Below are positions 3,834 to 55,487 of a stretch of 64,000 nt of DNA, piece after piece. Made by a program: the position numbers and the translations under genes. The notes under the pieces were generated by a model. The model did no database searches and was not told the DNA's origin. It worked only from the letters and a program-made list of their open reading frames with translations. The DNA comes from Escherichia coli. GTDB lineage: Bacteria > Pseudomonadota > Gammaproteobacteria > Enterobacterales > Enterobacteriaceae. The stretch lies in NCBI RefSeq assembly GCF_044324785.1, contig NZ_CP172127.1, one strand, 5' to 3'. Numbering within the stretch: the first letter of the stretch is position 1; each line of letters opens with the position of its first letter.

Positions 3834-4460
<627 letters not shown>

Positions 4461-4480
4461 TTTCTGTTTTCGTAATAATT

Positions 4481-4514
4481 CACGGCCCTGCATGCGAATG
4501 CAGGGCCGTTTTCG
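4481..4514 (+). terminator. grpE rho-independent terminator
   Basis: CACGGCCCTGCATGCGAATGCAGGGCCGTTTTCG hairpin followed by a T-run. Confidence 0.8.
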
Positions 4515-5777
4515 TTACTCCGCCACACTCTCGCGCAGCGGTTTCACAGGAAAAACTTTTACCTGCTTAATCATATTGTCCTGTACGTCGAGAATGTCGA
4601 TGTCGTACTCGCCAATACGTACACGGGTGCCCGCGACCGGGATCTCTTCCAGTGCCTCAAGAATGACGCCATTAACAGTGCGGGCATCATCTTCCGGTAG
4701 ATGCCAGTTAAAGGCTTTGTTGATTTCCCGCACGTTGGCGGTGCCATCAATAATCACTGAACCGTCGTTTTGCGGCGTGACCTCTTCGGCAAGTGTTGGC
4801 GACATGGACGTGGTGAAATCGCCGACAATCTCTTCCAGAATATCTTCAACCGTCACCAGCCCCTGAATGTCTCCATACTCGTTGACGACCAGGCCGACTT
4901 TCTTTTTGTTGCGCTGAAACTTTACCAACTGCGTGCTGAGCGGCGTACCTTCTGGCACAAAATAGATCTCGTCCGCAGCACGCAGCATCGTCTCTTTGGT
5001 GAACTCTTTTTTCTCCGACATCAACCGCCAGGCTTCACGTACTCGCAGCATACTGATGGCGTCGTCCAGCGAATCACGGTAGAGCACGATGCGCCCGTGA
5101 GGTGAGTGGGAGAGTTGGCGCAGAATCGATTTCCAGTCATCGTTGATATCAATACCGATAATTTCACTGCGCGGCACCATGATGTCATCAACGGTCATTT
5201 TTTCCAGATCGAGCACCGACAGCAGCATATCCTGATTGCGACGGGAAATTTGTGAGCGCGATTCGTGCACGATGGTGCGCAACTCTTCTTTGCTTAAAGA
5301 GCCGCTAACAACGATATCGGTTTTGATGCCCATCATGCGCATTAACATGCGGGTAATAGCGTTCAGCAACCAGACCAGCGGCATCATCAAAATTTGCAGC
5401 GGAGCCAGCAGAAAACTACTCGGATAAGCGACTTTTTCCGGGTACAGCGCGGCAATGGTTTTCGGCAATACCTCAGCAAAAACCAGTACGACAAAAGTCA
5501 GCACACCAGTCGCAATTGCCACGCCCGCATCGCCGTACAAACGCATCCCAACAATAGTGCCGAGCGCGGAGGCAAGAATATTGACCAGGTTATTGCCGAT
5601 TAACACCAGGCTAATCAGGCGGTCTGGCTTACGCAGCAATTTTTCGACGCGTTTGGCCGAGCGATTACCCTGTTTCGCCATATGTCGCAGACGATAGCGG
5701 TTGAGGGTCATCATTCCGGTTTCGGACCCGGAAAAATAGGCTGAAATGACCACCATGATGATCAGAATAATGATCAA
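4515..5777 (-). CDS. yfjD: Inner membrane protein YfjD (CorC/CNNM family: DUF21, CBS pair and CorC_HlyC domains)
   Basis: 420 aa ORF with N-terminal transmembrane segments; true start may lie slightly upstream at a non-ATG codon. Confidence 0.85.
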   Translation of the reverse strand: MIIILIIMVVISAYFSGSETGMMTLNRYRLRHMAKQGNRSAKRVEKLLRKPDRLISLVLIGNNLVNILASALGTIVGMRLYGDAGVAIATGVLTFVVLVFAEVLPKTIAALYPEKVAYPSSFLLAPLQILMMPLVWLLNAITRMLMRMMGIKTDIVVSGSLSKEELRTIVHESRSQISRRNQDMLLSVLDLEKMTVDDIMVPRSEIIGIDINDDWKSILRQLSHSPHGRIVLYRDSLDDAISMLRVREAWRLMSEKKEFTKETMLRAADEIYFVPEGTPLSTQLVKFQRNKKKVGLVVNEYGDIQGLVTVEDILEEIVGDFTTSMSPTLAEEVTPQNDGSVIIDGTANVREINKAFNWHLPEDDARTVNGVILEALEEIPVAGTRVRIGEYDIDILDVQDNMIKQVKVFPVKPLRESVAE

Positions 5778-5821
5778 CGTAGTAGTAGAAATGTGTTCCA
5801 GGGGAAACTCCTTTTCTGGGT

Positions 5822-6613
5822 TTAGCTGATTAACTGCTGGACAATTCGGCTGCCGAAGTAGGCTAGTGTCAGAATGACTGCACCCGCAACGTTAAACCAG
5901 ACGACGCGGCGTCCACGCCATCCTTCATGATAATGTCCCCACAGCAGCACAATATAGACAAACCACGCCACGATAGAGAGCACGGCCTTGTCGATATTTT
6001 CCATGCTAAATAAGTTGTGCATGTAGAACAGGCCAGTGCAAAGAGTGAGCGTTAGCAGCACCACGCCAATCTGCGTGATGTGGAACATTTTACGCTCGAT
6101 ACTCATCAATGGCGGCATTTCCTGGTTAAACGCCAGCTTCTTGTTCTTCAGTTGGTAATCAATCCACGCCAGTTGCAGCGCGTACAGGGCGGCGATAATC
6201 AGCGTGGCATAGGAAAAGAGCGATAAGCCAATGTGCACCAGCATCCCAGGCGTAGCTTCCAGATGGGTGATGTATTCATTGGGCATGAAGGTCGCCAGCG
6301 CCAGGTTGATAAGCGCAAAGGCATAGACAATGGGTAGCAGCAACCAGCCACGATTGCGAGAAGCCACAATGGTCATTACCGTACAGATCATCAAACTGAC
6401 CAATGAACCAACATTCAGCAGGCTGAGGTTTTGTCCGCTATCACCGTCGGGAAGGATGCGGGCTTCCAGAGCGATTGCGTGGCAGATCAGCGCGATGACC
6501 GCAGAAATAATAGCCATGCGCCGCCAGCCGCCGTTTTTTTGCAGCAGACCGGGAACAATCAGCGCAAGACTGACGGAGTAGGCGACAAGCGCGAGCAGAG
6601 CAAAAACGGGCAT
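5822..6613 (-). CDS. ypjD: Inner membrane protein YpjD (cytochrome c assembly CcsA-like family)
   Basis: ORF track gives 288 aa; start chosen at the internal Met (MPVFALLALVAY...) giving 263 aa; polytopic membrane protein. Confidence 0.8.
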   Translation of the reverse strand: MPVFALLALVAYSVSLALIVPGLLQKNGGWRRMAIISAVIALICHAIALEARILPDGDSGQNLSLLNVGSLVSLMICTVMTIVASRNRGWLLLPIVYAFALINLALATFMPNEYITHLEATPGMLVHIGLSLFSYATLIIAALYALQLAWIDYQLKNKKLAFNQEMPPLMSIERKMFHITQIGVVLLTLTLCTGLFYMHNLFSMENIDKAVLSIVAWFVYIVLLWGHYHEGWRGRRVVWFNVAGAVILTLAYFGSRIVQQLIS

Positions 6614-6779
6614 AGTAATGTCGACAGTTTGAGCAATAAGAAAGAGAAGCAGTATAGCGTTAGGTGAACGCTGCTCCAACCGTTGCATAACAACAAAGAC
6701 GCCTTCATGTTATACTGCGGCAAAATACTGATGATGTGTCGCGATTGCGGCCAACCGTTTCCACCCCAGGCGAGAGACA

Positions 6780-8141
6780 ATGTTTGATAATTTAACCGAT
6801 CGTTTGTCGCGCACGCTGCGCAATATCAGTGGCCGTGGACGCCTCACTGAAGACAACGTAAAAGATACGCTGCGCGAAGTGCGCATGGCGCTGCTGGAGG
6901 CGGACGTCGCTCTGCCGGTAGTGCGTGAGTTTATCAATCGCGTAAAAGAGAAAGCGGTTGGTCATGAAGTTAATAAGAGCCTGACGCCGGGGCAGGAGTT
7001 CGTCAAAATCGTCCGTAACGAACTGGTTGCGGCGATGGGCGAAGAGAACCAGACCCTGAACCTGGCTGCGCAACCGCCTGCGGTCGTGCTGATGGCGGGC
7101 CTGCAAGGTGCCGGTAAAACAACCAGCGTTGGTAAACTCGGTAAGTTCCTGCGCGAGAAGCACAAGAAGAAAGTGCTGGTGGTTTCCGCCGACGTTTATC
7201 GCCCGGCGGCAATCAAACAGCTTGAGACGCTGGCAGAGCAGGTGGGCGTTGATTTCTTCCCTTCTGATGTTGGTCAGAAGCCGGTAGATATCGTTAACGC
7301 GGCGCTGAAAGAAGCCAAACTGAAATTCTACGACGTGCTGCTGGTGGATACCGCTGGTCGTCTGCACGTTGACGAAGCGATGATGGATGAGATCAAACAA
7401 GTCCATGCGTCGATTAATCCGGTTGAAACCCTGTTTGTGGTTGACGCCATGACCGGTCAGGATGCGGCCAATACGGCAAAAGCATTCAATGAAGCGTTAC
7501 CGCTTACCGGTGTAGTGTTGACCAAAGTGGACGGCGATGCCCGCGGTGGTGCGGCGCTCTCTATTCGTCACATCACTGGCAAACCGATCAAGTTCCTCGG
7601 TGTTGGCGAGAAAACTGAGGCGCTGGAGCCGTTCCATCCGGACCGCATCGCGTCGCGTATTCTAGGCATGGGCGACGTACTGTCGCTGATCGAAGATATC
7701 GAAAGCAAAGTTGACCGCGCGCAGGCAGAGAAATTAGCCAGCAAGCTAAAAAAAGGCGACGGCTTCGATCTCAACGACTTCCTTGAGCAACTGCGCCAGA
7801 TGAAAAATATGGGCGGCATGGCCAGCTTGATGGGCAAACTGCCGGGCATGGGGCAGATCCCGGATAACGTCAAGTCACAGATGGACGATAAAGTGCTGGT
7901 GCGTATGGAAGCCATCATCAACTCGATGACGATGAAAGAGCGCGCTAAGCCAGAAATCATCAAAGGTTCGCGTAAGCGTCGTATCGCTGCCGGTTGCGGT
8001 ATGCAGGTGCAGGACGTTAACCGCCTTCTGAAGCAGTTCGACGACATGCAGCGCATGATGAAGAAAATGAAGAAGGGCGGAATGGCGAAGATGATGAGAA
8101 GCATGAAGGGTATGATGCCGCCGGGATTTCCTGGTCGCTAA
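6780..8141 (+). CDS. ffh: Signal recognition particle protein Ffh
   Basis: 453 aa, SRP54-type GTPase motifs GLQGAGKTT and DTAGR, Met-rich C-terminal domain. Confidence 0.95.
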   Translation: MFDNLTDRLSRTLRNISGRGRLTEDNVKDTLREVRMALLEADVALPVVREFINRVKEKAVGHEVNKSLTPGQEFVKIVRNELVAAMGEENQTLNLAAQPPAVVLMAGLQGAGKTTSVGKLGKFLREKHKKKVLVVSADVYRPAAIKQLETLAEQVGVDFFPSDVGQKPVDIVNAALKEAKLKFYDVLLVDTAGRLHVDEAMMDEIKQVHASINPVETLFVVDAMTGQDAANTAKAFNEALPLTGVVLTKVDGDARGGAALSIRHITGKPIKFLGVGEKTEALEPFHPDRIASRILGMGDVLSLIEDIESKVDRAQAEKLASKLKKGDGFDLNDFLEQLRQMKNMGGMASLMGKLPGMGQIPDNVKSQMDDKVLVRMEAIINSMTMKERAKPEIIKGSRKRRIAAGCGMQVQDVNRLLKQFDDMQRMMKKMKKGGMAKMMRSMKGMMPPGFPGR

Positions 8142-12738: not shown

Positions 12739-13104
12739 TTAATTTAATCGTATTGTGCTGGCATTTTCATCAGCCCCTTTTTGCCATACTTCATGCAGTT
12801 GGCTGGCATTTTCAACATTGTTGCAGCTGGCAGGAAAGCTTTTACCGGAAAGTCCTCGGGCATAAGTAAAATCGGTCTGGCAAGTTTTCTTTTGTCCTTC
12901 GGCATATCCTTTAAGGTATAGACTGCGATCCGCCTGTGAATCGCTAAATGCATCGTCATCTTTTATGGCGTTGCCCGATATCGCATCTTCCATACCGACA
13001 TCATACCAGTCGGTGCTGGTCAAGGTTGGCGCGTGAGTATAAGGATCAATCTGACATCCGCTAACCAGTAAAGCCAACAAGGGGGCGATAAACTTTTTCA
13101 TCAT
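12739..13104 (-). CDS. yfiL: Putative lipoprotein YfiL
   Basis: Signal peptide with lipobox LVSGCQ; start chosen at the ATG preceded by GGAG (MMKKFIAPLL...); the ORF-track start at 13143 is an over-extension. Confidence 0.75.
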   Translation of the reverse strand: MMKKFIAPLLALLVSGCQIDPYTHAPTLTSTDWYDVGMEDAISGNAIKDDDAFSDSQADRSLYLKGYAEGQKKTCQTDFTYARGLSGKSFPASCNNVENASQLHEVWQKGADENASTIRLN

Positions 13105-17534: not shown

Positions 17535-17567
17535 AAAAAAACGGCAGCTCAAGGGCTGCCGTTTTGT
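17535..17567 (-). terminator. bamD terminator
   Basis: CGGCAGCTCAAGGGCTGCCG hairpin flanked by A- and T-runs. Confidence 0.7.
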
Positions 17568-28674: not shown

Positions 28675-29973
28675 ATGGCTGAAAGTACTGTAACGGCAGA
28701 CAGCAAACTGACAAGTAGTGATACTCGTCGCCGCATTTGGGCGATTGTGGGGGCCTCTTCAGGTAATCTGGTCGAGTGGTTCGATTTCTATGTCTACTCG
28801 TTCTGTTCACTCTACTTTGCCCACATCTTCTTCCCTTCCGGGAACACGACGACTCAACTACTACAAACAGCAGGTGTTTTTGCTGCGGGATTTCTGATGC
28901 GCCCAATAGGCGGTTGGCTATTTGGCCGCATAGCCGATAAACATGGTCGCAAAAAATCGATGCTGTTATCGGTGTGTATGATGTGTTTCGGCTCACTGGT
29001 TATCGCCTGTTTGCCAGGCTACGAAACAATCGGTACCTGGGCTCCGGCATTATTGCTTCTTGCTCGTTTATTCCAGGGATTATCCGTTGGCGGAGAATAT
29101 GGCACCAGCGCCACCTATATGAGTGAAGTTGCCGTTGAAGGGCGCAAAGGTTTTTACGCATCATTTCAGTATGTGACGTTGATCGGCGGGCAACTGCTAG
29201 CTCTACTGGTTGTCGTGGTTTTACAACACACCATGGAAGACGCTGCACTCAGAGAGTGGGGATGGCGTATTCCTTTCGCGTTAGGAGCTGTGTTAGCTGT
29301 TGTGGCGTTGTGGTTACGTCGTCAGTTAGATGAAACTTCACAACAAGAAACACGCGCTTTAAAAGAAGCTGGATCTCTGAAAGGATTATGGCGCAATTGC
29401 CGTGCATTCATCATGGTTCTCGGTTTTACCGCTGCGGGCTCCCTTTGTTTCTATACCTTCACCACTTATATGCAGAAGTATCTGGTAAATACTGCGGGAA
29501 TGCATGCCAACGTGGCGAGTGGCATTATGACAGCCGCATTGTTTGTTTATATGCTCATTCAGCCACTTTTTGGTGCCTTGTCAGATAAGATTGGTCGCCG
29601 AACTTCGATGCTTTGCTTCGGTTCTCTGGCTGCTGTTTTTACCGTTCCGATACTCTCAGCATTACAGAATGTATCTTCTCCTTATGCCGCTTTTGGTCTG
29701 GTGATGTGCGCCCTGCTGATCGTGAGTTTTTATACTTCAATCAGTGGAATACTGAAGGCTGAAATGTTCCCGGCCCAGGTTCGCGCATTAGGTGTTGGTC
29801 TGTCGTATGCCGTCGCTAATGCGATATTTGGTGGCTCAGCAGAGTATGTAGCGTTATCGTTAAAATCGGTAGGAATGGAAACATCTTTCTTCTGGTATGT
29901 CACCTTTATGGCAGTGATTGCATTCCTGGTATCACTAACATTGCACCGTAAAGGAAAAGGGATGCGTCTTTAG
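28675..29973 (+). CDS. kgtP: Alpha-ketoglutarate:H+ symporter KgtP (MFS)
   Basis: 432 aa [22 protein letters not shown]...; 12 predicted transmembrane segments. Confidence 0.95.
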
Positions 29974-30293
29974 TTACGGGTCAGTTGCCAGACGGTATAG
30001 CCGGTGCTTGCACCGGCGACATCCCAGGCCAAATCCTTCCAGCTCCAGCCGCTCCCTTCGGGGCGGCTATCCCAAAGCTCTTTTGACGCGCCCAGCCCAA
30101 CAGAGAACATCAGCCCGAAAGTGGCACTGCGATCGCGACTCATCCCCTGATGCTGTGCATATTCATTTCCGGCGGCGGAAAGCATCGCCGAGGCGATAAA
30201 GTGTTGAGCTTTATCCTGCCCGCTCCAGCTATCGTTAGCCATATGGCTGCATCCAGAAAGTAACAATAGCGAACAGACAAAAAGAATACGCAA
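29970..30293 (-). CDS. yfiM: Lipoprotein YfiM (107 aa), TTG start
   Basis: Lipobox LLSGCS; GGAGG Shine-Dalgarno 6 nt upstream of the TTG at 30293; the ORF-track start at 30314 is an over-extension; 3' end overlaps kgtP stop. Confidence 0.75.
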
Positions 30294-30338
30294 AACGTGG
30301 CCTCCAAAAAACAAACCCCGTACAGGACGGGGTTGTGA

Positions 30339-31694
30339 TTACAGGATGCGGCTAATTAATCGGTCGATGCGGATACGGCGCAAACGACGGATGAGTTTAC
30401 GAACCTTCACCGGATAATCGGCAATACTTTGCAGATCGCGATAGTGCTTAACGATGGTGGTATGCTCGCGGATCAGCTCCAGTTCTTTCTCTCGCTGTGG
30501 TGCAAGCTCCAGTTGCGGATCGTGGATCAAAATGGCGTTTTCCAGATCCAGACGCCAGGCGCGCGGGTTCAGGTTATTACCGGTGATCAACATCCACTTA
30601 TCATCAACCCACATCCCTTTCAGGTGATAGGTGTTGTCGTCATCTTTCCATAACCGAACCACTAACTGGTCAGTGTTGACGTAATACTGTAAACGGCTCA
30701 GGAAACGACGCAGATTGATCTCATAGAGATAAGGCAATGCGCCAATTATCTTGAAAGGTTCATCTTCCGGAATGTAGAAGTCATTCGCGGTTTTATCACC
30801 AACAATAATTTCGACCTTTTTCCCTTCGCGCAGCAACTGGATGATATTGCGCACAAGGATTGCTGGCAGGTTGAAGTATGGCGTACAGATGGTTAGTTTC
30901 TGCTCGGCACAAGGCATAAGGTGGAAAATGGTCTTGTTTAACAGACTCGATTTCCCCAGTCCCACTAGCGGCGTTACGGAAAGCTGATCGTTGTCGGCAT
31001 CGCCCTGGAAATGATAAGCGGCATCACGCAGCTCCTGGCGGAACAGGCGAATGTCGTTCTTGATTTCCGGGCTTTTTGGCCGATTAACATCATCCAGACG
31101 ATTAACGCCGCGGCCATTCATAATATTCTGTGTAACCCATTCAAACATAATGTCTGACATCTTACGGTTACGGATAAGATGATAACGGTCGTAGCGATAT
31201 TTATCGTGCTGATGCAGGTAAACATCGTTCAGGCTGGCACCGCTATAAAGTACGCTATCGTCGATGATAAAGCCTTTAAAGTGCAGAACACCAAGGGCTT
31301 CACGGGTATTGATTGGAACGCCATAAACCGGAACATCTACGCCCGGATTTTCCTGCGCCATGCGGCAGTACCAGTCAGCGTTAGTGTTAGATGCCGCAGC
31401 GCCAATGCGTCCACGTTGTGCACGATGCCAGTCGACCAGCACCCGCACATCCAGTTCCGGACGCTGCCTTTTAGCCTCATACAACGCGTTCAGAATGCCT
31501 TTGCCACCGTCATCCTGTTCGAGATACAGGGCGACAATGCAAATGCGCTGCTTCGCGCTGGCTATTTTTTCCAGCAGCGTCTCCCGGAAGTCGGCGGGAG
31601 CGTAAAAGAAATCGACATCATCAACTGATTGAGAAATCTTGGGTAGTTGGGCAAGGTGTTGTTGATGTTTATTACGCTTAAATTTTGACAACAT
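30339..31694 (-). CDS. pssA: CDP-diacylglycerol-serine O-phosphatidyltransferase (phosphatidylserine synthase), PLD family
   Basis: 451 aa MLSKFKRNKHQQHLAQLPKISQSV... Confidence 0.95.
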   Translation of the reverse strand: MLSKFKRNKHQQHLAQLPKISQSVDDVDFFYAPADFRETLLEKIASAKQRICIVALYLEQDDGGKGILNALYEAKRQRPELDVRVLVDWHRAQRGRIGAAASNTNADWYCRMAQENPGVDVPVYGVPINTREALGVLHFKGFIIDDSVLYSGASLNDVYLHQHDKYRYDRYHLIRNRKMSDIMFEWVTQNIMNGRGVNRLDDVNRPKSPEIKNDIRLFRQELRDAAYHFQGDADNDQLSVTPLVGLGKSSLLNKTIFHLMPCAEQKLTICTPYFNLPAILVRNIIQLLREGKKVEIIVGDKTANDFYIPEDEPFKIIGALPYLYEINLRRFLSRLQYYVNTDQLVVRLWKDDDNTYHLKGMWVDDKWMLITGNNLNPRAWRLDLENAILIHDPQLELAPQREKELELIREHTTIVKHYRDLQSIADYPVKVRKLIRRLRRIRIDRLISRIL

Positions 31695-31807
31695 CACAGT
31701 GCATTTCTTCTCTGTTCATTGAAGGGTCCTCTGTGCAATGCAGACGACATAAGCGGGCAATAATAACACCAGTCCCGATTAAGTGGTCAACATTTCCAGT
31801 ACCTTAC

Positions 31808-34468
31808 TCATGATTCCTCGCGCTGGGCAAGATTTAGCGTAAGCCCAACGATCCCCTCTTCGAGCTGGATATCAACGTTAAACCCGAGCTTGCGGGCCAG
31901 CGCCACCATGCCACGATTGTTTGGCATCGTAATACCATTCAGACGTTGTAGTCCGTGATCTCGCGTATAGGTAATCAACTTTTCCATTAAGCGTCGACCT
32001 AAGCCTAACCCTTTGAGATCCGAGCGAACCAGCACGGCAAATTCGGCATCGATGTTATCAGGGTCGGAGATCGCACGCGTGACGCCGAGGATCTCTTCCG
32101 TTTGATCAATACGTCGTACCGCTACAAATGCCATTTCCCGATCGTAGTCGATCTGCGTCATGTTGGCTAAATCTTCATGGGTAAATTCGTTGATCTCGCT
32201 AAAGTAGCGGTAATAAAGATCTTCTTTGGTGACTCGCGAAATGAACTGCTGAAGTTGTGGCTCATCTTCTGGCAAAATCGGGCGGAACAAGCAGCGTTCA
32301 CCGTTTTTCAATTCTACCCACTCTTCCAGCTGATGTGGATAAGGGCGCACTGCCAGCCGGCTCTCGTTATCGCCTTCAAACGGCGCGATATCCAGCGTGA
32401 CATCCAGCGCGGTAAATTCACTGCCAGAAGCCAGCAAAGGATGAATATCCAGACGTTGAATTTCCGGACAATCGACAATCAAGTTGGAAACCTGTACCAG
32501 AAGCTGGCTCAAGCCTGCAACATCCAATGGGCGTAGCGCACTGCGCGCACGAATCTTTTTACTTTTGATCCCCTGAATAACCAGATAGCGGGCCAGGTTC
32601 ATGTTCAGCGGCGGCAGTGCGACGACGGCTTGATCTTCAGGACGCCACTCCACACCGCCTTCACCCAGCATGATTAACGGCCCGAAAACCGGATCGTGCT
32701 CAACCACAACCCGCAACTCCTGAGCGCCAGCACGGTTAGCCATACTTTGCACCAACAGGCCGTGGACCCGCGCCTGCGGCCAGGCCATTTTTACGCGATC
32801 GAAAATAGCGTTTGCCGCTTGCTGGACTTCATTAGCTGTACGCAGGTAGAGCATTACGCCCTGAACTTCCGATTTATGTGGAATATCCGGCGAGCGCAAT
32901 TTCAGTGCCACCGGATAGCCAATCTGTTCGGCAATATGTACCGCTTCGGTGCTATCACTGGCAATCCAGGTAGGGAGAGTATTCATACCATACGCTTGCA
33001 GGATGGGCTGAACTTCATGGGTATCGAGCGACGTAGCCCCTTCGGCAATCGCCTGTTGCAACAGAAGATGCGCTTCTGCGGTATTGGAAGTCAGATTGCT
33101 GGGCAACGCCGGCGTTTCGCGTAGTTGCTTCTGATTACGCCGGTACTCGACCATATGCATAAAAGCAGTGATGGTTCCTTCCGGAGTACGGTAAGTCGGC
33201 AGCCCGGCTTCGCTGAATAAACGTCGTGCCTCTTGCGAGGAGTGCTCGCCGCACCAGTTCGTCAGCAAAGAGACATATTTGCTGCGGGGATGATGCTTTA
33301 CCGCTTCAATTAATACTTGCGCGCTTTCTGTTGCGGGAGCAGCGGCGCTGGGCGAATGAATAACCATCAGCGCATCAAAATCCTGGCTGTGGAGCAGAAT
33401 GTCCAGCGTTTTGACATAATGCTCGCTGCTGGCGTCATCGCGCAGATCGAGCGGGTTAGAGATTGCCACATGCCCTGGCAGTGCATCGCGCAGTTTCTGG
33501 CAGGTTTCTTCGCTTAGCGTTGCCAGCTTGCCATTACGTGACCATAAGGCATCCAGCGCCAGCGCGGCAGGCGCAGCACCGTTGCTGATAATCATCAATC
33601 GGTCGCCACGCAGCGGGCGCATATGGCTAAGGGTTTCCACCGCCGAAAACAGTTCGTGGGTGTCCTGTACCCGCAACAAACCGGCACGCTGAATAGCTGC
33701 ATCCCACGCCGGATCCATTCCTGCCGTGGTGTTCAACAGACGTTGAGCCGCCGGGCTACGTCCGCTTTTAATCACCAGAATCGGTTTATTGCGCGAGGCA
33801 CTACGGGCTGCCGAAACAAAGCGCCTCGCGTCGCTTAACTGTTCGAGATAGAGCAGGATGGCGCTGGTTTTACTGTCGCGCGCCAGATAGTCGAGCAATT
33901 CATCAACGTCGATATCCAGGCTGTCGCCGAGCGCAATAAAGTAGGAAAAGCCCATCTCACGCTGTTGCGCCCAGTCGAGGATGGTGTTGGAGACAGCAGC
34001 CGATTGCGAAATAAACGCCAGCTTGCCGCGTTTAATCGGCACAGGCGAAAAGCTGGCATTCAGACCTTGCCAGGGAGCCAGTAAGCCCAGACTGTTTGGT
34101 CCTAGCAGGCGCATGTTATGGCGCAGGGCGCAGGCGCGGAGATCTTCGTGTTGCGATGCCGGGGCGGAAAGAATAATGCAGGTTTTACAGCCTTTCTCGC
34201 CGAGCTCTTCCAGAAGAGCAAGATTACGGCTGGCATTGGTACATAAAACCGCAAGGTCGGGTGTAAAGGGCAAGCTGGCAATATCCGGCCAGGCCAACAC
34301 ACCCAACACCGCTTTCCAGGCTGGCGTCACCGGGAGTACCGGTCCGTTAAAGCCTCCCGCCAGCAGGTTACGCATCATCAGGTAACCTGCGCGATTGGGT
34401 TTCATCGACGCGCCAATTACCGCTATCGATTTTGGTCGCAGTAGTGCTTCCAGTCCTCGCTGACTCAT
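31808..34468 (-). CDS. patZ: Protein lysine acetyltransferase PatZ/Pka (YfiQ): CoA-binding, NDP-forming acyl-CoA synthetase-like and GNAT domains
   Basis: 886 aa, recognised sequence. Confidence 0.95.
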   Translation of the reverse strand: MSQRGLEALLRPKSIAVIGASMKPNRAGYLMMRNLLAGGFNGPVLPVTPAWKAVLGVLAWPDIASLPFTPDLAVLCTNASRNLALLEELGEKGCKTCIILSAPASQHEDLRACALRHNMRLLGPNSLGLLAPWQGLNASFSPVPIKRGKLAFISQSAAVSNTILDWAQQREMGFSYFIALGDSLDIDVDELLDYLARDSKTSAILLYLEQLSDARRFVSAARSASRNKPILVIKSGRSPAAQRLLNTTAGMDPAWDAAIQRAGLLRVQDTHELFSAVETLSHMRPLRGDRLMIISNGAAPAALALDALWSRNGKLATLSEETCQKLRDALPGHVAISNPLDLRDDASSEHYVKTLDILLHSQDFDALMVIHSPSAAAPATESAQVLIEAVKHHPRSKYVSLLTNWCGEHSSQEARRLFSEAGLPTYRTPEGTITAFMHMVEYRRNQKQLRETPALPSNLTSNTAEAHLLLQQAIAEGATSLDTHEVQPILQAYGMNTLPTWIASDSTEAVHIAEQIGYPVALKLRSPDIPHKSEVQGVMLYLRTANEVQQAANAIFDRVKMAWPQARVHGLLVQSMANRAGAQELRVVVEHDPVFGPLIMLGEGGVEWRPEDQAVVALPPLNMNLARYLVIQGIKSKKIRARSALRPLDVAGLSQLLVQVSNLIVDCPEIQRLDIHPLLASGSEFTALDVTLDIAPFEGDNESRLAVRPYPHQLEEWVELKNGERCLFRPILPEDEPQLQQFISRVTKEDLYYRYFSEINEFTHEDLANMTQIDYDREMAFVAVRRIDQTEEILGVTRAISDPDNIDAEFAVLVRSDLKGLGLGRRLMEKLITYTRDHGLQRLNGITMPNNRGMVALARKLGFNVDIQLEEGIVGLTLNLAQREES

Positions 34469-34499
34469 ACCGGTCTCCCGCAGAAGTGACCGAATGATT

Positions 34500-35198
34500 T
34501 TAAACGCTTTCTAACTGTTCTGCTGTGATGCTACCCAGATGTTGCGTTTTTCCTGCCAGATAGCGTGTTTTAAAGCGGGTAAAATGCTCGCCTAACCCTG
34601 CTGCCGCCCCGGTATCGCCGGCCATATCTAACAGTGCGATGGCTACCTCGGCAGTACAATATTGGCCTTCAGCCTGGGCTTCACGCAGGCGATAGGCAGA
34701 AAGCCGGGAAAGATCGACGGAAATGACGGGAAGATTATCCAGATACGGACTTTTACGAAACATTTTGCGAGCTTCCGGCCAGGTACCATCGAGCATGATA
34801 AACAGCGGTGGCTTACCGGCAGGTGGTGTGAAGATCACTTCCCGTTGCTCATCAGCATACGAGGCGGGAAAGACCACCATTGGCTGATAATCCGGGTTTT
34901 GTACCAGATCCAGCAAATCTTGCGAGGGTTCGGTACGCGACCATTGAAACGCAACGGTATCAGGCAAAATATCAGCAATCAGACGCCCGGTATTACTGGG
35001 CTTCATTGGCTCGGTGTCGAACATCAGCAAACAGAAGCGACTTTTTGCTTGTGCTGGGGTAATTGTCGAACAGAGACATAATTTCTCTGGCAAAAGACAG
35101 CGTTGGCAGCGAAGAACGCGATTACCGCGGGCAAGAAAAGGACGTGTTGCGCGCGCAATACGCTCGGCGCGTAACTGAAGAACAGCGTTTTCGGTCAT
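34500..35198 (-). CDS. yfiP: DTW-domain tRNA-uridine aminocarboxypropyltransferase YfiP (TapT)
   Basis: Start at the internal Met (MTENAVLQLRAERIARAT...) giving 232 aa; the ORF-track start at 35249 is an over-extension; DTW motif present. Confidence 0.85.
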   Translation of the reverse strand: MTENAVLQLRAERIARATRPFLARGNRVLRCQRCLLPEKLCLCSTITPAQAKSRFCLLMFDTEPMKPSNTGRLIADILPDTVAFQWSRTEPSQDLLDLVQNPDYQPMVVFPASYADEQREVIFTPPAGKPPLFIMLDGTWPEARKMFRKSPYLDNLPVISVDLSRLSAYRLREAQAEGQYCTAEVAIALLDMAGDTGAAAGLGEHFTRFKTRYLAGKTQHLGSITAEQLESV

Positions 35199-35235
35199 AA
35201 GAGAGCGTCGAAAAAACGCCATTGTCGCAGAGGAG

Positions 35236-35262
35236 AAAACGGGGCACAAGATGCGCCCCGGT
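35236..35262 (-). terminator. trxC terminator
   Basis: CGGGGCACAAGATGCGCCCCG hairpin with a T-run on the minus strand. Confidence 0.6.
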
Positions 35263-35266
35263 AAGA

Positions 35267-35686
35267 TTAAAGCGATTCGTTCAGCCAGCTATCGAACGGC
35301 GCTTTCGGTACTGCGCCATTAAGCATGTCGACAACCTGACCGTTTTTGAAAATCATGATCGTCGGTATACTACGAATTCCAAAGCGACTGCTCAATTCAC
35401 GTTCAGCTTCGGTATTCACTTTCACAAAGCGCACTTTACCGCTACGCTCTTGCGCGACATCTTCAAAAATTGGTGCGAAATTACGGCAGGGGCCGCACCA
35501 CGGTGCCCAGAAGTCGATCACCACTGGTAGATCATCTTTCAGCAATTTGTCGAGCGTTTCACCGGTCGCATTAATCACCTCTCCGTCAAACAAGTCGTGA
35601 CCGCAGCGTCCGCATTTTGCCGCATCTTCGATCCGATCGTCGGGAATGCGATTGATGGCCTGACAATGGGTACAAACGGTATTCAT
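35267..35686 (-). CDS. trxC: Thioredoxin 2 (N-terminal zinc-finger CxxC pairs plus WCGPC active site)
   Basis: 139 aa [30 protein letters not shown]...WAPWCGPC. Confidence 0.95.
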
Positions 35687-35892
35687 AACTAACCTCGGGA
35701 TGAGTAAGGAGACTTATCGGCAACGACGCCGGTATGTTTCTAATATGTTACATATTATCGGGGACATTGTTCCAGACAACAATCTGTTTTATTCAATAGG
35801 TATGATAGTCGCAGGCTTTGGTACGAAATCATGGCGAACCGCGCGGACTTCGGGTAATCTGCGCGCTTCGCGCAGCGCTGGTGGAGAAAAGC

Positions 35893-36930
35893 ATGAACGA
35901 TGAAATGAAAGGTAAAAGCGGCAAGGTCAAAGTGATGTATGTCCGCAGTGATGATGATTCTGATAAACGTACCCACAACCCGCGTACCGGGAAAGGGGGC
36001 GGGCGTCCAGGAAAATCTCGTGCTGACGGTGGCCGTCGCCCCGCCCGCGATGACAAACAGAGTCAGCCCCGTGACCGCAAGTGGGAAGATTCGCCGTGGC
36101 GCACGGTTTCCCGCGCGCCGGGTGATGAGACGCCGGAAAAGGCCGATCACGGTGGCATCAGTGGTAAAAGTTTTATTGATCCAGAAGTTTTGCGTCGTCA
36201 GCGTGCGGAAGAAACCCGCGTCTACGGCGAAAATGCATGTCAGGCACTGTTCCAGAGCCGTCCGGAAGCGATTGTTCGCGCCTGGTTTATCCAGAGCGTA
36301 ACGCCACGTTTTAAAGAAGCCTTGCGCTGGATGGCGGCAAACCGCAAAGCGTACCATGTGGTGGATGAAGCGGAATTGACAAAAGCGTCAGGCACGGAAC
36401 ATCACGGCGGCGTTTGCTTCCTGATCAAAAAGCGTAATGGCACAACTGTGCAGCAGTGGGTAAGCCAGGCAGGTGCGCAGGATTGCGTTCTGGCACTGGA
36501 AAACGAATCTAACCCGCATAACCTGGGGAGCATGATGCGCAGCTGCGCGCACTTCGGCGTGAAAGGCGTTGTGGTGCAGGATGCGGCACTGCTGGAGTCG
36601 GGTGCGGCTATCCGTACCGCAGAAGGCGGCGCAGAGCACGTTCAGCCGATTACTGGCGACAACATTGTTAACGTGCTGGATGATTTCCGTCAGGCGGGTT
36701 ACACCGTAGTGACAACTTCCAGCGAGCAGGGGAAACCGCTGTTCAAAACCAGTCTGCCAGCGAAAATGGTACTGGTGCTGGGTCAGGAATATGAAGGGTT
36801 ACCGGATGCCGCACGCGATCCAAACGATCTGCGCGTGAAGATTGACGGTACTGGCAACGTTGCCGGGCTAAATATCTCTGTCGCAACTGGCGTTTTGCTT
36901 GGTGAATGGTGGCGTCAGAATAAAGCCTGA
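35893..36930 (+). CDS. yfiF: Putative SpoU/TrmH-family RNA methyltransferase YfiF
   Basis: Start at [22 protein letters not shown] giving 345 aa; Lys/Arg-rich N-terminal extension and SpoU methylase domain. Confidence 0.85.
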
Positions 36931-38409: not shown

Positions 38410-38997
38410 TTAATAGAATATGCGTACCGCACAATAGACCAGCAACAGGGCAAGCACGATATTTAACTGGCGACCATACTGGCGAAACAATCGCTGAAAC
38501 AGATGCCCCGCCAGCGCCCAGCACACATTGCCAAACGTCCCAATCATCGCCAGCAAAACGCTGACGCCAACTACCCAGCTTAGCGCCTGCGTTTGCGGCA
38601 GGACAAACGTCGACAGTGCCGTAACGCCATACAAAATGATTTTGACGTTCACAAACTGCAAAGCAAAGCTGGCCCAAAAGCTGATTGGTTTTGCCTGAAG
38701 TCCGTCTTCCTTTGTTGGACTGGTAGCGATTTTCCACGCCAGCCAGACAATGTATGCCGCTCCTGCCCAACTCAACAGATGCACTGCTGCCGGGTCGATA
38801 ACAGCCAGTGAAAACGAAATTCCCGCACACAGCAACATGACGATTAAAAATCCCAGACTCATCCCTGCCAGCACGCGGGTACTCTGACGAAATCCGTGCG
38901 ATGTGGCTGAGCTAAGGGCGAGAATATTGTTCGGTCCTGGCGTCATGGCGGTAATCAGGGTGTAAGTCCAAAAAGCACTTAAAAGGGTCGGTGTCAC
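38410..38997 (-). CDS. eamB: Cysteine / O-acetylserine exporter EamB (YfiK), LysE/RhtB family
   Basis: 195 aa, six transmembrane segments. Confidence 0.9.
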   Translation of the reverse strand: MTPTLLSAFWTYTLITAMTPGPNNILALSSATSHGFRQSTRVLAGMSLGFLIVMLLCAGISFSLAVIDPAAVHLLSWAGAAYIVWLAWKIATSPTKEDGLQAKPISFWASFALQFVNVKIILYGVTALSTFVLPQTQALSWVVGVSVLLAMIGTFGNVCWALAGHLFQRLFRQYGRQLNIVLALLLVYCAVRIFY

Positions 38998-39099: not shown

Positions 39100-39981
39100 A
39101 TGGATCTGCGCCGTTTTATTACGCTTAAAACCGTGGTGGAAGAGGGTTCCTTTTTGCGAGCTTCGCAAAAATTGTGCTGTACACAATCGACGGTGACTTT
39201 TCATATTCAGCAGCTTGAACAGGAGTTCTCGGTACAGTTGTTTGAGAAAATTGGTCGACGGATGTGCCTCACTCGCGAAGGAAAAAAGCTGCTGCCGCAC
39301 ATCTATGAACTTACCCGAGTGATGGATACGCTTCGTGAGGCTGCCAAAAAAGAGTCGGATCCGGACGGGGAACTACGCGTTGTTTCGGGCGAAACGTTGC
39401 TCTCTTACCGAATGCCGCAGGTGTTGCAGCGTTTTCGGCAACGTGCACCAAAAGTACGTTTATCGCTGCAGTCGCTGAACTGTTACGTGATCCGTGATGC
39501 ACTACTGAATGATGAGGCCGATGTTGGCGTCTTTTATCGCGTAGGAAATGATGATGCTTTGAACCGACGAGAGTTGGGTGAACAATCGCTGGTGCTGGTG
39601 GCTTCACCACAAATTGCAGATGTCGATTTTACTGAGCCGGGAAGACATAACGCCTGTAGCTTTATTATCAACGAACCGCAATGTGTCTTCCGGCAGATAT
39701 TTGAGAGCACGCTGCGACAGCGGCGGATCACGGTGGAAAACACCATTGAGCTTATAAGTATCGAAAGCATCAAGCGTTGTGTCGCGGCGAATATCGGGGT
39801 CAGTTACTTGCCGCGCTTTGCGGTGGCAAAAGAGCTTGAGAGCGGAGAATTAATTGAATTGCCTTTTGGCGAACAGTCGCAGACCATTACGGCCATGTGC
39901 GCACACCATGCTGGAAAAGCGGTTAGCCCGGCGATGCACACTTTTATTCAGTGTGTTGAAGAGTGTTTTTTGCCGGGATAA
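39100..39981 (+). CDS. yfiE: LysR-type transcriptional regulator YfiE
   Basis: Start at MDLRRFITLKTVVEEGSF giving 293 aa; N-terminal HTH; divergent from eamB. Confidence 0.85.
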   Translation: MDLRRFITLKTVVEEGSFLRASQKLCCTQSTVTFHIQQLEQEFSVQLFEKIGRRMCLTREGKKLLPHIYELTRVMDTLREAAKKESDPDGELRVVSGETLLSYRMPQVLQRFRQRAPKVRLSLQSLNCYVIRDALLNDEADVGVFYRVGNDDALNRRELGEQSLVLVASPQIADVDFTEPGRHNACSFIINEPQCVFRQIFESTLRQRRITVENTIELISIESIKRCVAANIGVSYLPRFAVAKELESGELIELPFGEQSQTITAMCAHHAGKAVSPAMHTFIQCVEECFLPG

Positions 39982-54322: not shown

Positions 54323-54619
<297 letters not shown>

Positions 54620-54638: not shown

Positions 54639-55487
54639 TCAGACCAGTTTTTTCACCAGCGCTTCACTATGACGAATACGTTCTGGTGCCAGTTCCAGAT
54701 CCTGCTGAATCAGCGCAATGAACAGCAAATCCGTTAACATTCCCTGCGCGTGGCAAGCAGAGATTGAAGCACTGTTTGTCGCTTGTTCTTCGGCAATGGT
54801 ATACAGGCAATGAGAAGCACGCTGTTGCAGGGCATTGGGAGTAAAGCCGGTAATCGCCAGCACTTTTCCGCCCACTCGCAGCATCTCATCTGCCGCCAGG
54901 TTTAACTCGCGTCGTACACCGGTGTAGGAAATGGCTAATAACAGATCGTCAGGGGACGACGCCTGTACTGTAGCGAGTAGCGCATGCATATCGCGCACTG
55001 CGGCAGCATTGAAGCCAATCTTCATCAGCTTCCAGGCAAAGTTTTGCGCCACCAGACCCGAAGCGCCAATACCGGTCAGAATTATCCGCCGTGCAGAGCG
55101 CAACATTGCCACGCACTCATGCAGCTTCTCTTCACTATTAACGTTTAGCGTTGCGTACATGGCGGCAGTATTTTCTTTAATCAGTTTTTCGCCGACCAGC
55201 CGTAACGGATCATCACCGCGGATTTGGTTATGAATGGGCACGGAGGGAGATTCCGGCTGGCTTGCCAGCGCTTCACTCAACGCCAACTTAAGTGCCGGAA
55301 AACCTTTATAGCCGAGTTTTTGCGCAAACTTCACGACGCTGGACTGACTGACTCCGGCTTCGTTGGCCAGTTGCTGAGAGCTTAAATGGCGCGCCGTATC
55401 AGGTTGTAGCAGCAGATAATCCGCCAGTTTTTTATCACTCTGGGCAAGCCCCTGGTAACGCTGACGGATACGAAGTAAGCCGTTCAT
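54639..55487 (-). CDS. yfhH: RpiR-family transcriptional regulator YfhH (HTH plus SIS domain)
   Basis: Start at MNGLLRIRQRYQGLAQSDKKLADYLL giving 282 aa; the ORF-track start at 55559 is an over-extension. Confidence 0.8.
   Translation of the reverse strand: MNGLLRIRQRYQGLAQSDKKLADYLLLQPDTARHLSSQQLANEAGVSQSSVVKFAQKLGYKGFPALKLALSEALASQPESPSVPIHNQIRGDDPLRLVGEKLIKENTAAMYATLNVNSEEKLHECVAMLRSARRIILTGIGASGLVAQNFAWKLMKIGFNAAAVRDMHALLATVQASSPDDLLLAISYTGVRRELNLAADEMLRVGGKVLAITGFTPNALQQRASHCLYTIAEEQATNSASISACHAQGMLTDLLFIALIQQDLELAPERIRHSEALVKKLV

What the first reader, a model, noticed from the sequence alone, without database searches (positions are those of the whole stretch)
4515..6613. Under-characterised genes embedded among essential loci are the best targets for functional follow-up
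yfjD (CorC/CNNM-like membrane protein) and ypjD (CcsA-like membrane protein) sit between grpE and ffh. Elsewhere the window holds yfiL and yfiM (lipoproteins), yfiF (SpoU methyltransferase with a highly basic N-terminus), yfiE (LysR regulator divergent from the exporter eamB), and yfhH-yfhL (RpiR regulator beside a small ferredoxin). Their functions are poorly defined compared with their neighbours.
Basis: inference. Interest (0 to 1): 0.3.

Follow-up and report, generated by a model that had tools for sequence, protein, structure and literature searches.

The report
Two E. coli genes of unclear function
The flagged stretch is the ordinary E. coli ypjD-yfjD gene pair: yfjD is a CorB-type magnesium exporter, and ypjD looks like a relative of HemX, the membrane protein that limits haem synthesis in Gram-positive bacteria, which gives a testable function for a long-unexplained gene.

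Summary
Window 4515-6613 (minus strand) contains exactly yfjD (4515-5801) and ypjD (5822-6613), between grpE and ffh. The other seven genes named are also in the window with the stated domains. As written, the finding is a list of known unknowns, and several of these genes now have partial data: YfiF, YfiE, YfiM and YfhL.

- **YfjD:** it is a complete CNNM/CorB cation exporter that keeps the ion-site residues of the solved archaeal CorB. Its start codon is never ATG in 84 genomes examined.
- **YpjD relatives:** the nearest relatives I could find are WWD-less proteins encoded beside hemA (HemX-like). They share its 8-helix layout and Tyr12, His45 and His127.
- **Published phenotypes:** ypjD loss gives resistance to the porphyrin NMM, while hemA knock-down sensitises. 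ypjD loss also gives blue-light hypersensitivity. ypjD is absent from haem-auxotrophic Haemophilus haemolyticus.

My best reading is that YpjD is a HemX-like brake on tetrapyrrole flux. This is inferred, not shown. Interest is moderate.

The parts
4515..5801 (-). yfjD (corB), 428 codons: CNNM transmembrane domain, CBS pair, CorC_HlyC domain
   Evidence: Annotation; Pfam 182.5, 35.8 and 69.6 bits. PDB relatives are MtCorB 7M1T/7M1U, TpCorC 7CFF, and 3HF7 (CBS pair of an unidentified near-identical protein; residues 201-330, E 2e-74). Ion-site residues S20, S24, E110 and P113 align with MtCorB S21, S25, E111 and P114.
5799..5801 (-). yfjD start codon CTG (non-AUG)
   Evidence: Read directly from the sequence. 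The homologous codon is CTG in K-12 and Salmonella, GTG in Klebsiella and TTG in 79 of 80 other gammaproteobacterial loci; it is never ATG. E. coli and Klebsiella differ in codons 2-8 only at third positions, with the peptide unchanged.
5808..5813 (-). Shine-Dalgarno AAGGAG, 6 nt upstream of the CTG
   Evidence: An AAGGA-type SD sits at the same distance in most of the orthologous loci.
5822..6613 (-). ypjD, 263 codons: 8-helix membrane protein with the CcsA/CcmF fold and no WWD loop
6479..6481 (-). codon for His45 (helix 2, outer half of the membrane)
   Evidence: His in 89 of 98 family representatives and in 11 of 14 hemA-adjacent relatives. It is Ala in the one true CcsA control.
6233..6235 (-). 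codon for His127 (periplasmic end of helix 5)
   Evidence: Invariant in 98 of 98 representatives and in 15 of 15 relatives found near hemA loci. It aligns with CcmF His173 in a low-confidence hhalign.
6651..6679 (-). ypjD sigma-70 promoter: -35 TTGGAG (6674-6679), 17-nt spacer, -10 TATACT (6651-6656)
   Evidence: Both hexamers are invariant across E. coli, Salmonella, Klebsiella, Yersinia, Serratia, Hafnia and Photorhabdus, while the surrounding intergenic DNA varies. The promoter lies inside the longer 288-codon ORF (5822-6688), which argues for the ATG at 6611-6613.
4482..4509 (.). GC-rich hairpin between the convergent grpE and yfjD, a likely two-way terminator
   Evidence: 12-bp stem with 8 GC pairs followed by a T run.
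12739..13104 (-). yfiL, DUF2799 lipoprotein
29970..30293 (-). yfiM, DUF2279 / YfiM-family lipoprotein, last gene of the trxC-tapT-patZ-pssA-yfiM run
   Evidence: Lipocone paper.
35893..36930 (+). yfiF, SpoU-type methyltransferase with a charged, disordered-looking N-terminus
   Evidence: iCLIP paper.
39100..39981 (+). yfiE, LysR regulator divergent from eamB (38410-38997, -)
   Evidence: ChIP-exo.
54323..54583 (-). yfhL, 2x[4Fe-4S] ferredoxin
54639..55487 (-). yfhH, RpiR/MurR-type regulator (HTH_6 + SIS)

Best explanation
The interval is a two-gene operon, ypjD then yfjD. It is read from a conserved sigma-70 promoter that points away from ffh, and it ends at the hairpin shared with grpE.

YfjD is the E. 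coli CorB. It is a CNNM-type exporter of Mg2+ (or a similar cation) whose CBS pair senses Mg-ATP. It is made in small amounts because its start codon is CTG.

YpjD is not a cytochrome c assembly enzyme. It is a branch of the CcsA fold that has lost the WWD loop, and it is closest to the HemX-like proteins encoded beside hemA in other bacteria.

I propose that YpjD binds haem or a porphyrin through His45 and His127 in the outer half of the membrane. Like HemX, it would then hold down the level of glutamyl-tRNA reductase (HemA), and so the flux into tetrapyrroles.

Shown here: gene structure, domains, fold, absence of WWD, similarity to hemA-linked proteins, and synteny. Inferred: ligand binding, the effect on HemA, and the ion carried by YfjD.
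For: **Operon anatomy**
- The gap between the genes is 20 bp with no terminator-like hairpin in that gap; a hairpin follows yfjD.
- The promoter hexamers are invariant in 7 genera.
- yfjD lies directly downstream of ypjD in 80 of 85 loci.

**YfjD**
- All three domains are above the Pfam cut-offs.
- It aligns with MtCorB and TpCorC, and S20, S24, E110 and P113 are conserved.
- In the literature, CorB comes from a Co2+-resistance / Mg2+-efflux screen, and its homologues MtCorB and MpfA export Mg2+.

**YpjD structure and family**
- The model has pLDDT 94. CcmF and CcsBA are the top structural hits.
- No Trp-rich loop exists: periplasmic loop 6 is about 9 residues.
- It scores 36 bits on TIGR03144, whose cut-off is 187.6.

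**Link to HemX-like proteins**
- A YpjD profile finds 15 ORFs in 120 metagenomic hemA loci. Of these, 14 are in the same orientation as, and 11 directly abut (3 lie 0.4-0.7 kb from), a hemA-motif ORF; three of these neighbours were checked with Pfam and are GtrR. They give full-length matches of 54-108 bits.
- The HemX-like profile scores E. coli YpjD at 91 bits in return.
- They share Y12, H45, H127, K209 and W217.
- E. coli CcmC and CcmF score below 0 bits against the YpjD profile.
- Published HemX is PF01578 with 8 TM helices and N-out/C-out topology. Its loss raises GtrR, haem and porphyrins.

**Published phenotypes**
- In a tolC-deletion strain, ypjD::kan is resistant to NMM but not to Braco-19. 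In the same study, CRISPRi of hemA sensitises cells to NMM.
- The ypjD deletion mutant is hypersensitive to blue light.
- YpjD is present in all haem-synthesising Haemophilus HMT-036 genomes and absent from the haem auxotroph H. haemolyticus.
Against: - ypjD is never next to hemA in the 85 gammaproteobacterial loci. Its fixed neighbours are ffh (81 of 85) and yfjD (80 of 85), whereas 94% of published hemX genes adjoin gtrR.
- I could not obtain the B. subtilis or S. aureus HemX sequences, so the link rests on hemA-adjacent metagenomic proteins that fit the published description.
- The HemX-like profile scores the one true CcsA control higher (120 bits) than most YpjD proteins (median 80). This makes HemX-like proteins intermediate between the two, not a proven sister group of YpjD.
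- There was only one CcsA control.
- CRISPRi of hemA is polar on prfA, which was itself a hit in that screen.
- The blue-light screen has many unrelated hits.
- E. coli has Asp at position 208, where 84% of the family has His.
- Salmonella corB deletion showed no phenotype in recent Mg2+ stress tests.
- The mechanism of HemX itself is unknown.
Confidence: 0.45

Rival explanations
1. YpjD is itself a porphyrin or haem carrier: a stripped-down CcsA channel that moves tetrapyrroles across the inner membrane, with no effect on HemA.
For: It has the fold of the haem-trafficking proteins CcmF and CcsBA. His127 is invariant and sits where CcmF has its first periplasmic haem ligand. The authors of the NMM study suggest import or export.
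Against: Loss of an importer would explain NMM resistance but not blue-light hypersensitivity. Loss of an exporter would explain the reverse. One carrier does not easily give both phenotypes. The WWD loop that holds haem in known carriers is absent. The closest relatives found sit beside hemA, a biosynthetic gene, not beside transport genes.
Confidence: 0.25
2. YpjD is a partner or accessory subunit of the CorB transporter and acts in cation homeostasis. On this reading the porphyrin phenotypes are indirect membrane effects.
For: The gene order ypjD-yfjD is kept in 80 of 85 loci spanning Enterobacterales, Vibrionales, Aeromonadales, Alteromonadales and Xanthomonadaceae. Its COG name is 'ABC-type uncharacterized transport system permease'.
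Against: Three distant clades keep ypjD next to ffh but have flagellar genes downstream instead of yfjD. No ABC ATPase is nearby. Solved CorB and CorC proteins work as homodimers without such a partner. This reading does not explain the similarity to hemA-linked proteins.
Confidence: 0.1
3. YpjD takes part in c-type cytochrome maturation, as the database name 'cytochrome c assembly family protein' implies.
For: Pfam PF01578 match at 164 bits, and a weak hit to the CcsB model.
Against: There is no WWD loop. It scores 36 bits against a cut-off of 187.6 on TIGR03144, while a true CcsA control scores 294. No ResB/CcsB partner gene lies nearby. E. coli has a full Ccm system elsewhere.
Confidence: 0.03

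Closest known systems
HemX of Staphylococcus aureus and Bacillus subtilis (membrane regulator of glutamyl-tRNA reductase abundance)
   Same: Both are PF01578 proteins of about 260-280 residues with eight helices and both ends outside the cell. Neither is tied to cytochrome c. hemA-adjacent proteins of this type match the YpjD profile over its full length and share Tyr12, His45 and His127. The mutant phenotypes point to porphyrin biology in both.
   Different: ypjD sits beside ffh and corB, not hemA. No effect of YpjD on HemA has been measured. The authentic HemX sequences were not compared here.
CcsA / CcsBA and CcmF (haem-handling cytochrome c synthases)
   Different: YpjD has no WWD loop. 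It lies far below the family cut-off, has no partner genes nearby, and shows no sequence match to any solved chain.
CorB / CNNM transporters (M. thermophilus CorB, T. parvatiensis CorC, S. aureus MpfA, Salmonella CorB and PaeA)
   Same: YfjD has the same three-domain layout and the same ion-site residues.
   Different: The substrate and direction of transport for E. coli YfjD are untested. Its paralogue PaeA exports polyamines rather than Mg2+, and Salmonella corB mutants lacked a phenotype in recent tests.

Membership tests
CNNM/CorB cation transporters (YfjD) | DUF21/CNNM transmembrane domain | tested here: met
   PF01595 at 182.5 bits against a cut-off of 28.4, covering residues 11-184.
CNNM/CorB cation transporters (YfjD) | Cytosolic CBS pair followed by a CorC_HlyC domain | tested here: met
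   PF00571 and PF03471 are both above cut-off. PDB 3HF7, 4HG0 and 3LAE match these regions.
CNNM/CorB cation transporters (YfjD) | Ion-coordinating Ser/Ser/Glu residues and the pi-helix Pro of MtCorB (S21, S25, E111, P114) | tested here: met
   A gap-free phmmer alignment to 7M1U gives S20, S24, E110 and P113. MtCorB S71 corresponds to N70, as in TpCorC.
CNNM/CorB cation transporters (YfjD) | Mg2+ efflux activity | not testable with these tools
   Only genetics from Salmonella (1991 screen) and negative 2025 phenotypes are on record.
CcsA/CcmC/CcmF haem-handling proteins (YpjD) | Pfam PF01578 match and the shared fold | tested here: met
CcsA/CcmC/CcmF haem-handling proteins (YpjD) | Trp-rich WWD loop on the periplasmic side | tested here: not met
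   No periplasmic loop holds conserved Trp, and loop 6 is about 9 residues. The only conserved Trp residues are in helix 7 and in the cytoplasmic GWRG motif. A true CcsA in the same alignment shows WGTYWSWDPKE.
CcsA/CcmC/CcmF haem-handling proteins (YpjD) | Periplasmic His ligands flanking the WWD loop | tested here: inconclusive
   His127 is invariant and aligns with CcmF His173, but the hhalign probability is below 1%. No second flanking His was identified.
CcsA/CcmC/CcmF haem-handling proteins (YpjD) | Score above the curated cut-off of the CcsB equivalog model TIGR03144 | tested here: not met
   36 bits against 187.6. The control CcsA scores 293.8.
CcsA/CcmC/CcmF haem-handling proteins (YpjD) | Neighbouring ResB/CcsB or Ccm genes | tested here: not met
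   The neighbours are ffh and yfjD. The ccm operon lies about 460 kb away in strain N3.
HemX-type regulators of GtrR (YpjD) | PF01578 protein with eight helices and both termini outside | tested here: met
   published description.
HemX-type regulators of GtrR (YpjD) | Sequence similarity to hemA-adjacent PF01578 proteins | tested here: met
   Forward scores are 54-108 bits. Reverse scores are 28-118 bits (E. coli YpjD 91). Matches cover the full length.
HemX-type regulators of GtrR (YpjD) | Gene adjacent to gtrR/hemA (94% of published cases) | tested here: not met
   0 of 85 loci.
HemX-type regulators of GtrR (YpjD) | Occurs only in genomes that make haem | tested here: inconclusive
   The Haemophilus pangenome paper supports this. 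My own Pasteurellaceae check landed on error-rich assemblies.
HemX-type regulators of GtrR (YpjD) | Direct similarity to B. subtilis or S. aureus HemX, and the same four conserved membrane residues | not tested
   The sequences could not be obtained. The afdb50 library was not available.
HemX-type regulators of GtrR (YpjD) | Loss raises GtrR, haem and porphyrin levels | not testable with these tools
   Only indirect phenotypes are available.

The most novel reading that the evidence does not exclude
YpjD is the HemX of gamma-proteobacteria: a haem-sensing membrane protein that sets HemA (GtrR) abundance. It would be the missing membrane component of the haem-dependent HemA turnover known in Salmonella and E. 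coli. Its fixed position beside ffh, rather than hemA, would then reflect a link between tetrapyrrole supply and membrane-protein biogenesis.
Probability: 0.3. Interest if true: 0.6.

Novelty: new member of a known kind. Interest (0 to 1): 0.4.

Why it matters
YpjD is conserved across gamma-proteobacteria, and its database name ('cytochrome c assembly family protein') points to a function it probably does not have.

If it works like HemX, the mechanism of HemX could be studied in E. coli, the best-developed genetic system. That mechanism has been unsolved since 1994. The result would bear on haem overproduction strains, on porphyrin-based photodynamic killing, and on off-target effects of NMM in G-quadruplex work.

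The never-ATG start of corB is a clean example of a conserved weak initiation codon. It could explain why corB mutants show so little phenotype.

The rest of the finding is a useful but ordinary checklist of partly characterised genes.

Tried and rejected
- **Sequence searches against PDB:** YpjD alone and the family profile against all PDB chains found nothing, even at E 10.
- **hhalign against E. coli CcmC and CcmF:** the family profile gave only sub-1% probabilities. I use the His127/His173 pairing only as a hint.
- **First related-loci scan:** The search for related loci with the 98-sequence alignment failed for lack of a conserved stretch. I repeated it with a 33-sequence subset. That scan returned only the 80 closest loci and, because of the peptide pattern used, none from Escherichia, Salmonella or Klebsiella. 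Those were added separately.
- **Context look-ups:** the first three landed on contigs of 1-2 kb or found no record.
- **AlphaFold-database fold search:** intended to rank authentic HemX against CcsA, but the library was not installed.
- **Haemophilus haem-auxotroph check:** I tried to test whether auxotrophs have lost ypjD between ffh and HI0107. The fragment search returned only short products, and both genomes reached are frameshift-ridden assemblies, so intact and decayed genes cannot be told apart.
- **Rfam:** no RNA family in 4300-7000.
- **Promoter scan:** the generic scan missed the ypjD promoter because its -35 matches only 3 of 6 positions. The alignment found it.
- **288-codon form of ypjD:** rejected. 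The promoter lies inside it, and orthologues align from residue 1-5 of the 263-residue form.
- **Met16 or the TTG at codon 9 as the yfjD start:** rejected. Residues 1-8 are conserved as protein.
Full report
**What is there.** The window is E. coli chromosome. Bases 4000-7200 match 5425 of 5426 complete E. coli genomes and are identical to strain N3. RefSeq annotation places yfjD at 4515-5801 and ypjD at 5822-6613, both on the minus strand, between grpE and ffh. These are the coordinates in the finding.

Outside that stretch the window is only 98.5-98.9% identical to N3 and lacks N3's IS4 element, so I re-derived the positions of the other genes:
- yfiL 12739-13104 (-)
- yfiM 29970-30293 (-)
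- yfiF 35893-36930 (+)
- eamB 38410-38997 (-)
- yfiE 39100-39981 (+)
- yfhL 54323-54583 (-)
- yfhH 54639-55487 (-)

YfiL and YfiM have lipoboxes. The YfiF N-terminus is charged rather than simply basic, with 26 K/R and 18 D/E in 105 residues.

**State of knowledge for the wider list.**
- YfiF binds rRNA, tRNA and several sRNAs in iCLIP, and its loss slows growth. Its methylation target is unknown.
- YfiE binds the yfiE/eamB region in ChIP-exo.
- YfiM has been placed by sequence analysis in the Lipocone superfamily. The window's trxC-tapT-patZ-pssA-yfiM run matches a five-gene operon described there.
- YfhL has a crystal structure and measured potentials, and can reduce NifH. Its native role is unknown.
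- YfhH was still listed as a regulator of unknown function in 2022.
- I found no functional work on YfiL.

**Anatomy of the interval.** ypjD stops at 5822 and yfjD starts 20 bp later, with no terminator-like hairpin in that gap. A 12-bp GC-rich hairpin (4482-4509) separates yfjD from the convergent grpE.

Upstream of ypjD, an alignment of seven enterobacterial genera shows two invariant blocks in an otherwise variable spacer: TTGGAG (6674-6679) and, 17 nt later, TATACT (6651-6656). This is a sigma-70 promoter about 35 nt before the ATG at 6611-6613. It lies inside the longer 288-codon ORF, which is therefore not the gene. No Rfam family matches the region.

**YfjD.**
- It has the full CNNM + CBS pair + CorC_HlyC layout.
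- It aligns without gaps to the solved archaeal CorB. Ser20, Ser24, Glu110 and Pro113 correspond to the Na+/cation-site residues Ser21, Ser25 and Glu111 and to the pi-helix Pro114. Asn70 matches the bacterial TpCorC.
- The literature treats Salmonella CorB as one of three loci from a cobalt-resistance screen that together abolish Mg2+ efflux. CorB homologues in an archaeon, a thermophile and S. aureus export Mg2+. Salmonella corB deletion had no phenotype in 2025 Mg2+ stress assays, and the paralogue PaeA exports polyamines.

I therefore call YfjD a CorB-type cation exporter, with Mg2+ as the most likely but unproven substrate.

**An unexpected detail in yfjD.** The annotated start is CTG, six bases after AAGGAG. 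The homologous codon is CTG in K-12 and Salmonella, GTG in Klebsiella, and TTG in 79 of 80 other gammaproteobacterial loci. It is never ATG.

Residues 1-8 are conserved as protein. E. coli and Klebsiella differ there only by third-position changes that leave the peptide unchanged. Translation therefore really begins at this weak codon, which suggests that low CorB output is selected.

**YpjD: fold and what is missing.**
- I aligned 98 representatives of 28-49% identity. They gave an AlphaFold model with pLDDT 94.4 and eight helices.
- Loop charges (10 K/R against 2) put both termini outside the cell.
- The family has no Trp-rich periplasmic loop. The loop where WWD should sit is about nine residues long, and the conserved Trp residues lie in helix 7 and in a cytoplasmic GWRG motif.
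- YpjD scores 36 bits on the CcsB equivalog model, whose cut-off is 187.6. It has no sequence match to any solved chain.
- Conserved polar residues are Tyr12, His45 (91%), His127 (100%), Glu173 and Lys209. Position 208 is His in 84% of the family but Asp in E. coli.

The database label 'cytochrome c assembly' is thus a fold label, not a function.

**YpjD: neighbours.** In 85 loci from Enterobacterales, Vibrionales, Aeromonadales, Alteromonadales, Xanthomonadaceae and unnamed lineages, ffh is the divergent neighbour in 81 and yfjD follows in 80. Three distant clades keep ffh but have flagellar genes downstream. The ffh link is therefore the older one, and I cannot explain it.

**YpjD: the HemX lead.** HemX of B. 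subtilis and S. aureus is described as a PF01578 protein with eight helices and both ends outside. It is adjacent to gtrR in 94% of genomes, and its loss raises GtrR, haem and porphyrins.

I could not fetch those sequences, so I scanned metagenomes for a hemA motif and obtained 120 loci. I then searched their ORFs with the YpjD profile.
- Fifteen ORFs matched. Fourteen are in the same orientation as a hemA-motif ORF, 11 directly abutting it and 3 lying 0.4-0.7 kb away; three of these neighbours were checked with Pfam and are GtrR. The matches are full length at 54-108 bits.
- These proteins lack WWD and fall below the CcsB cut-off (53-123 bits). They share Tyr12, His45 (11 of 14), His127 (all), Lys209 and Trp217 with YpjD.
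- The fifteenth is a true CcsA. It has WGTYWSWDPKE, scores 294 bits on TIGR03144, and has Val12 and Ala45. It scores only 44 bits on the YpjD profile.
- E. coli CcmC and CcmF score below zero on the YpjD profile.
- In the reverse direction, a profile of the hemA-linked proteins scores E. coli YpjD at 91 bits and the CcsA control at 120.

The hemA-linked group therefore lies between CcsA and YpjD. YpjD's nearest known relatives are HemX-like, but a sister relationship is not proven. No paper in the searchable library mentions ypjD and hemX together.

**Phenotypes from the literature.**
[quoted passage not shown] The authors suggest a role in 'porphyrin biology'.
- In the same paper, CRISPRi of hemA sensitised cells to NMM. 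That is the opposite sign, as expected if YpjD lowers HemA. The knock-down is polar on prfA, however, and prfA was also a hit.
- The ypjD deletion is among 64 mutants hypersensitive to antimicrobial blue light, and that study cites work on photo-excitation of endogenous porphyrins.
- In a Haemophilus pangenome, the YpjD function is present in every haem-synthesising HMT-036 genome and absent from the haem auxotroph H. haemolyticus.
- From general knowledge, not tested here: NMM is also a classic ferrochelatase inhibitor. More pathway flux could therefore plausibly give resistance.

**Reading.** The most economical account is that YpjD is a HemX-like brake on tetrapyrrole flux. It probably senses membrane haem or porphyrin through His45 and His127. 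A pure transporter explains one phenotype or the other, but not both easily. A CorB partner role fits the synteny but not the family relations. A cytochrome c role is nearly excluded. All functional steps are inferred, and the missing hemA adjacency is a real objection.

**Verdict.** The finding as written is an accurate but ordinary list of known unknowns. Its core interval is a normal conserved operon. The added value is a specific, cheap-to-test hypothesis for YpjD, and the conserved non-AUG start of corB.

Noticed in passing
window 5799-5813 (-); loci L006-L091, L212-L215: The yfjD/corB start codon is never ATG. It is CTG in E. coli and Salmonella, GTG in Klebsiella and TTG in 79 of 80 other gammaproteobacterial loci, in most cases 6-9 nt after an AAGGA-type Shine-Dalgarno. 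Gene callers therefore often start the Salmonella gene 15 codons too late (413 aa instead of 428 aa).
   Followed up: yes
window 6651-6679 (-): A conserved ypjD promoter (-35 TTGGAG, 17 nt, -10 TATACT) is invariant in seven enterobacterial genera. It lies inside the longer 288-codon ORF that some databases annotate as the gene.
   Followed up: yes
window 6614-6779; loci L006-L010, L012-L091: ffh is the divergent neighbour of ypjD in 81 of 85 loci, including distant clades that have lost the yfjD linkage. I found no reason for this pairing of the SRP protein gene with a CcsA-fold gene.
   Followed up: partly
window ~17545-17560, compared with L002 7361-8786: Strain N3 carries an IS4 element between raiA and bamD that the window lacks. 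The window is 100% identical to N3 over 4000-7200 but only 98.5-98.9% identical elsewhere, so it comes from a different strain with a locally identical segment.
   Followed up: partly
window ~29970-35690 (-): trxC, tapT, patZ, pssA and yfiM run head to tail on the minus strand. This matches the 'five-gene operon' (thioredoxin, DTW SPOUT enzyme, acyl-CoA ligase/GNAT, PssA, YfiM Lipocone) proposed in a 2025 preprint to act in resistance to antibacterial agents.
   Followed up: no
L199 2702-3616 (-): One metagenomic locus has a true CcsA (WWD motif present, 294 bits on TIGR03144) about 1 kb from hemA on the opposite strand. It served as an internal control but was the only one.
   Followed up: partly
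L216 4239-4847; L217 4173-4956: Two Pasteurellaceae genomes keep a ypjD-like sequence upstream of the corB homologue. In the Haemophilus-like one the match is weak and spread over two reading frames. This could be gene decay in a haem auxotroph or just assembly error, since ffh and corB are also fragmented there.
   Followed up: partly
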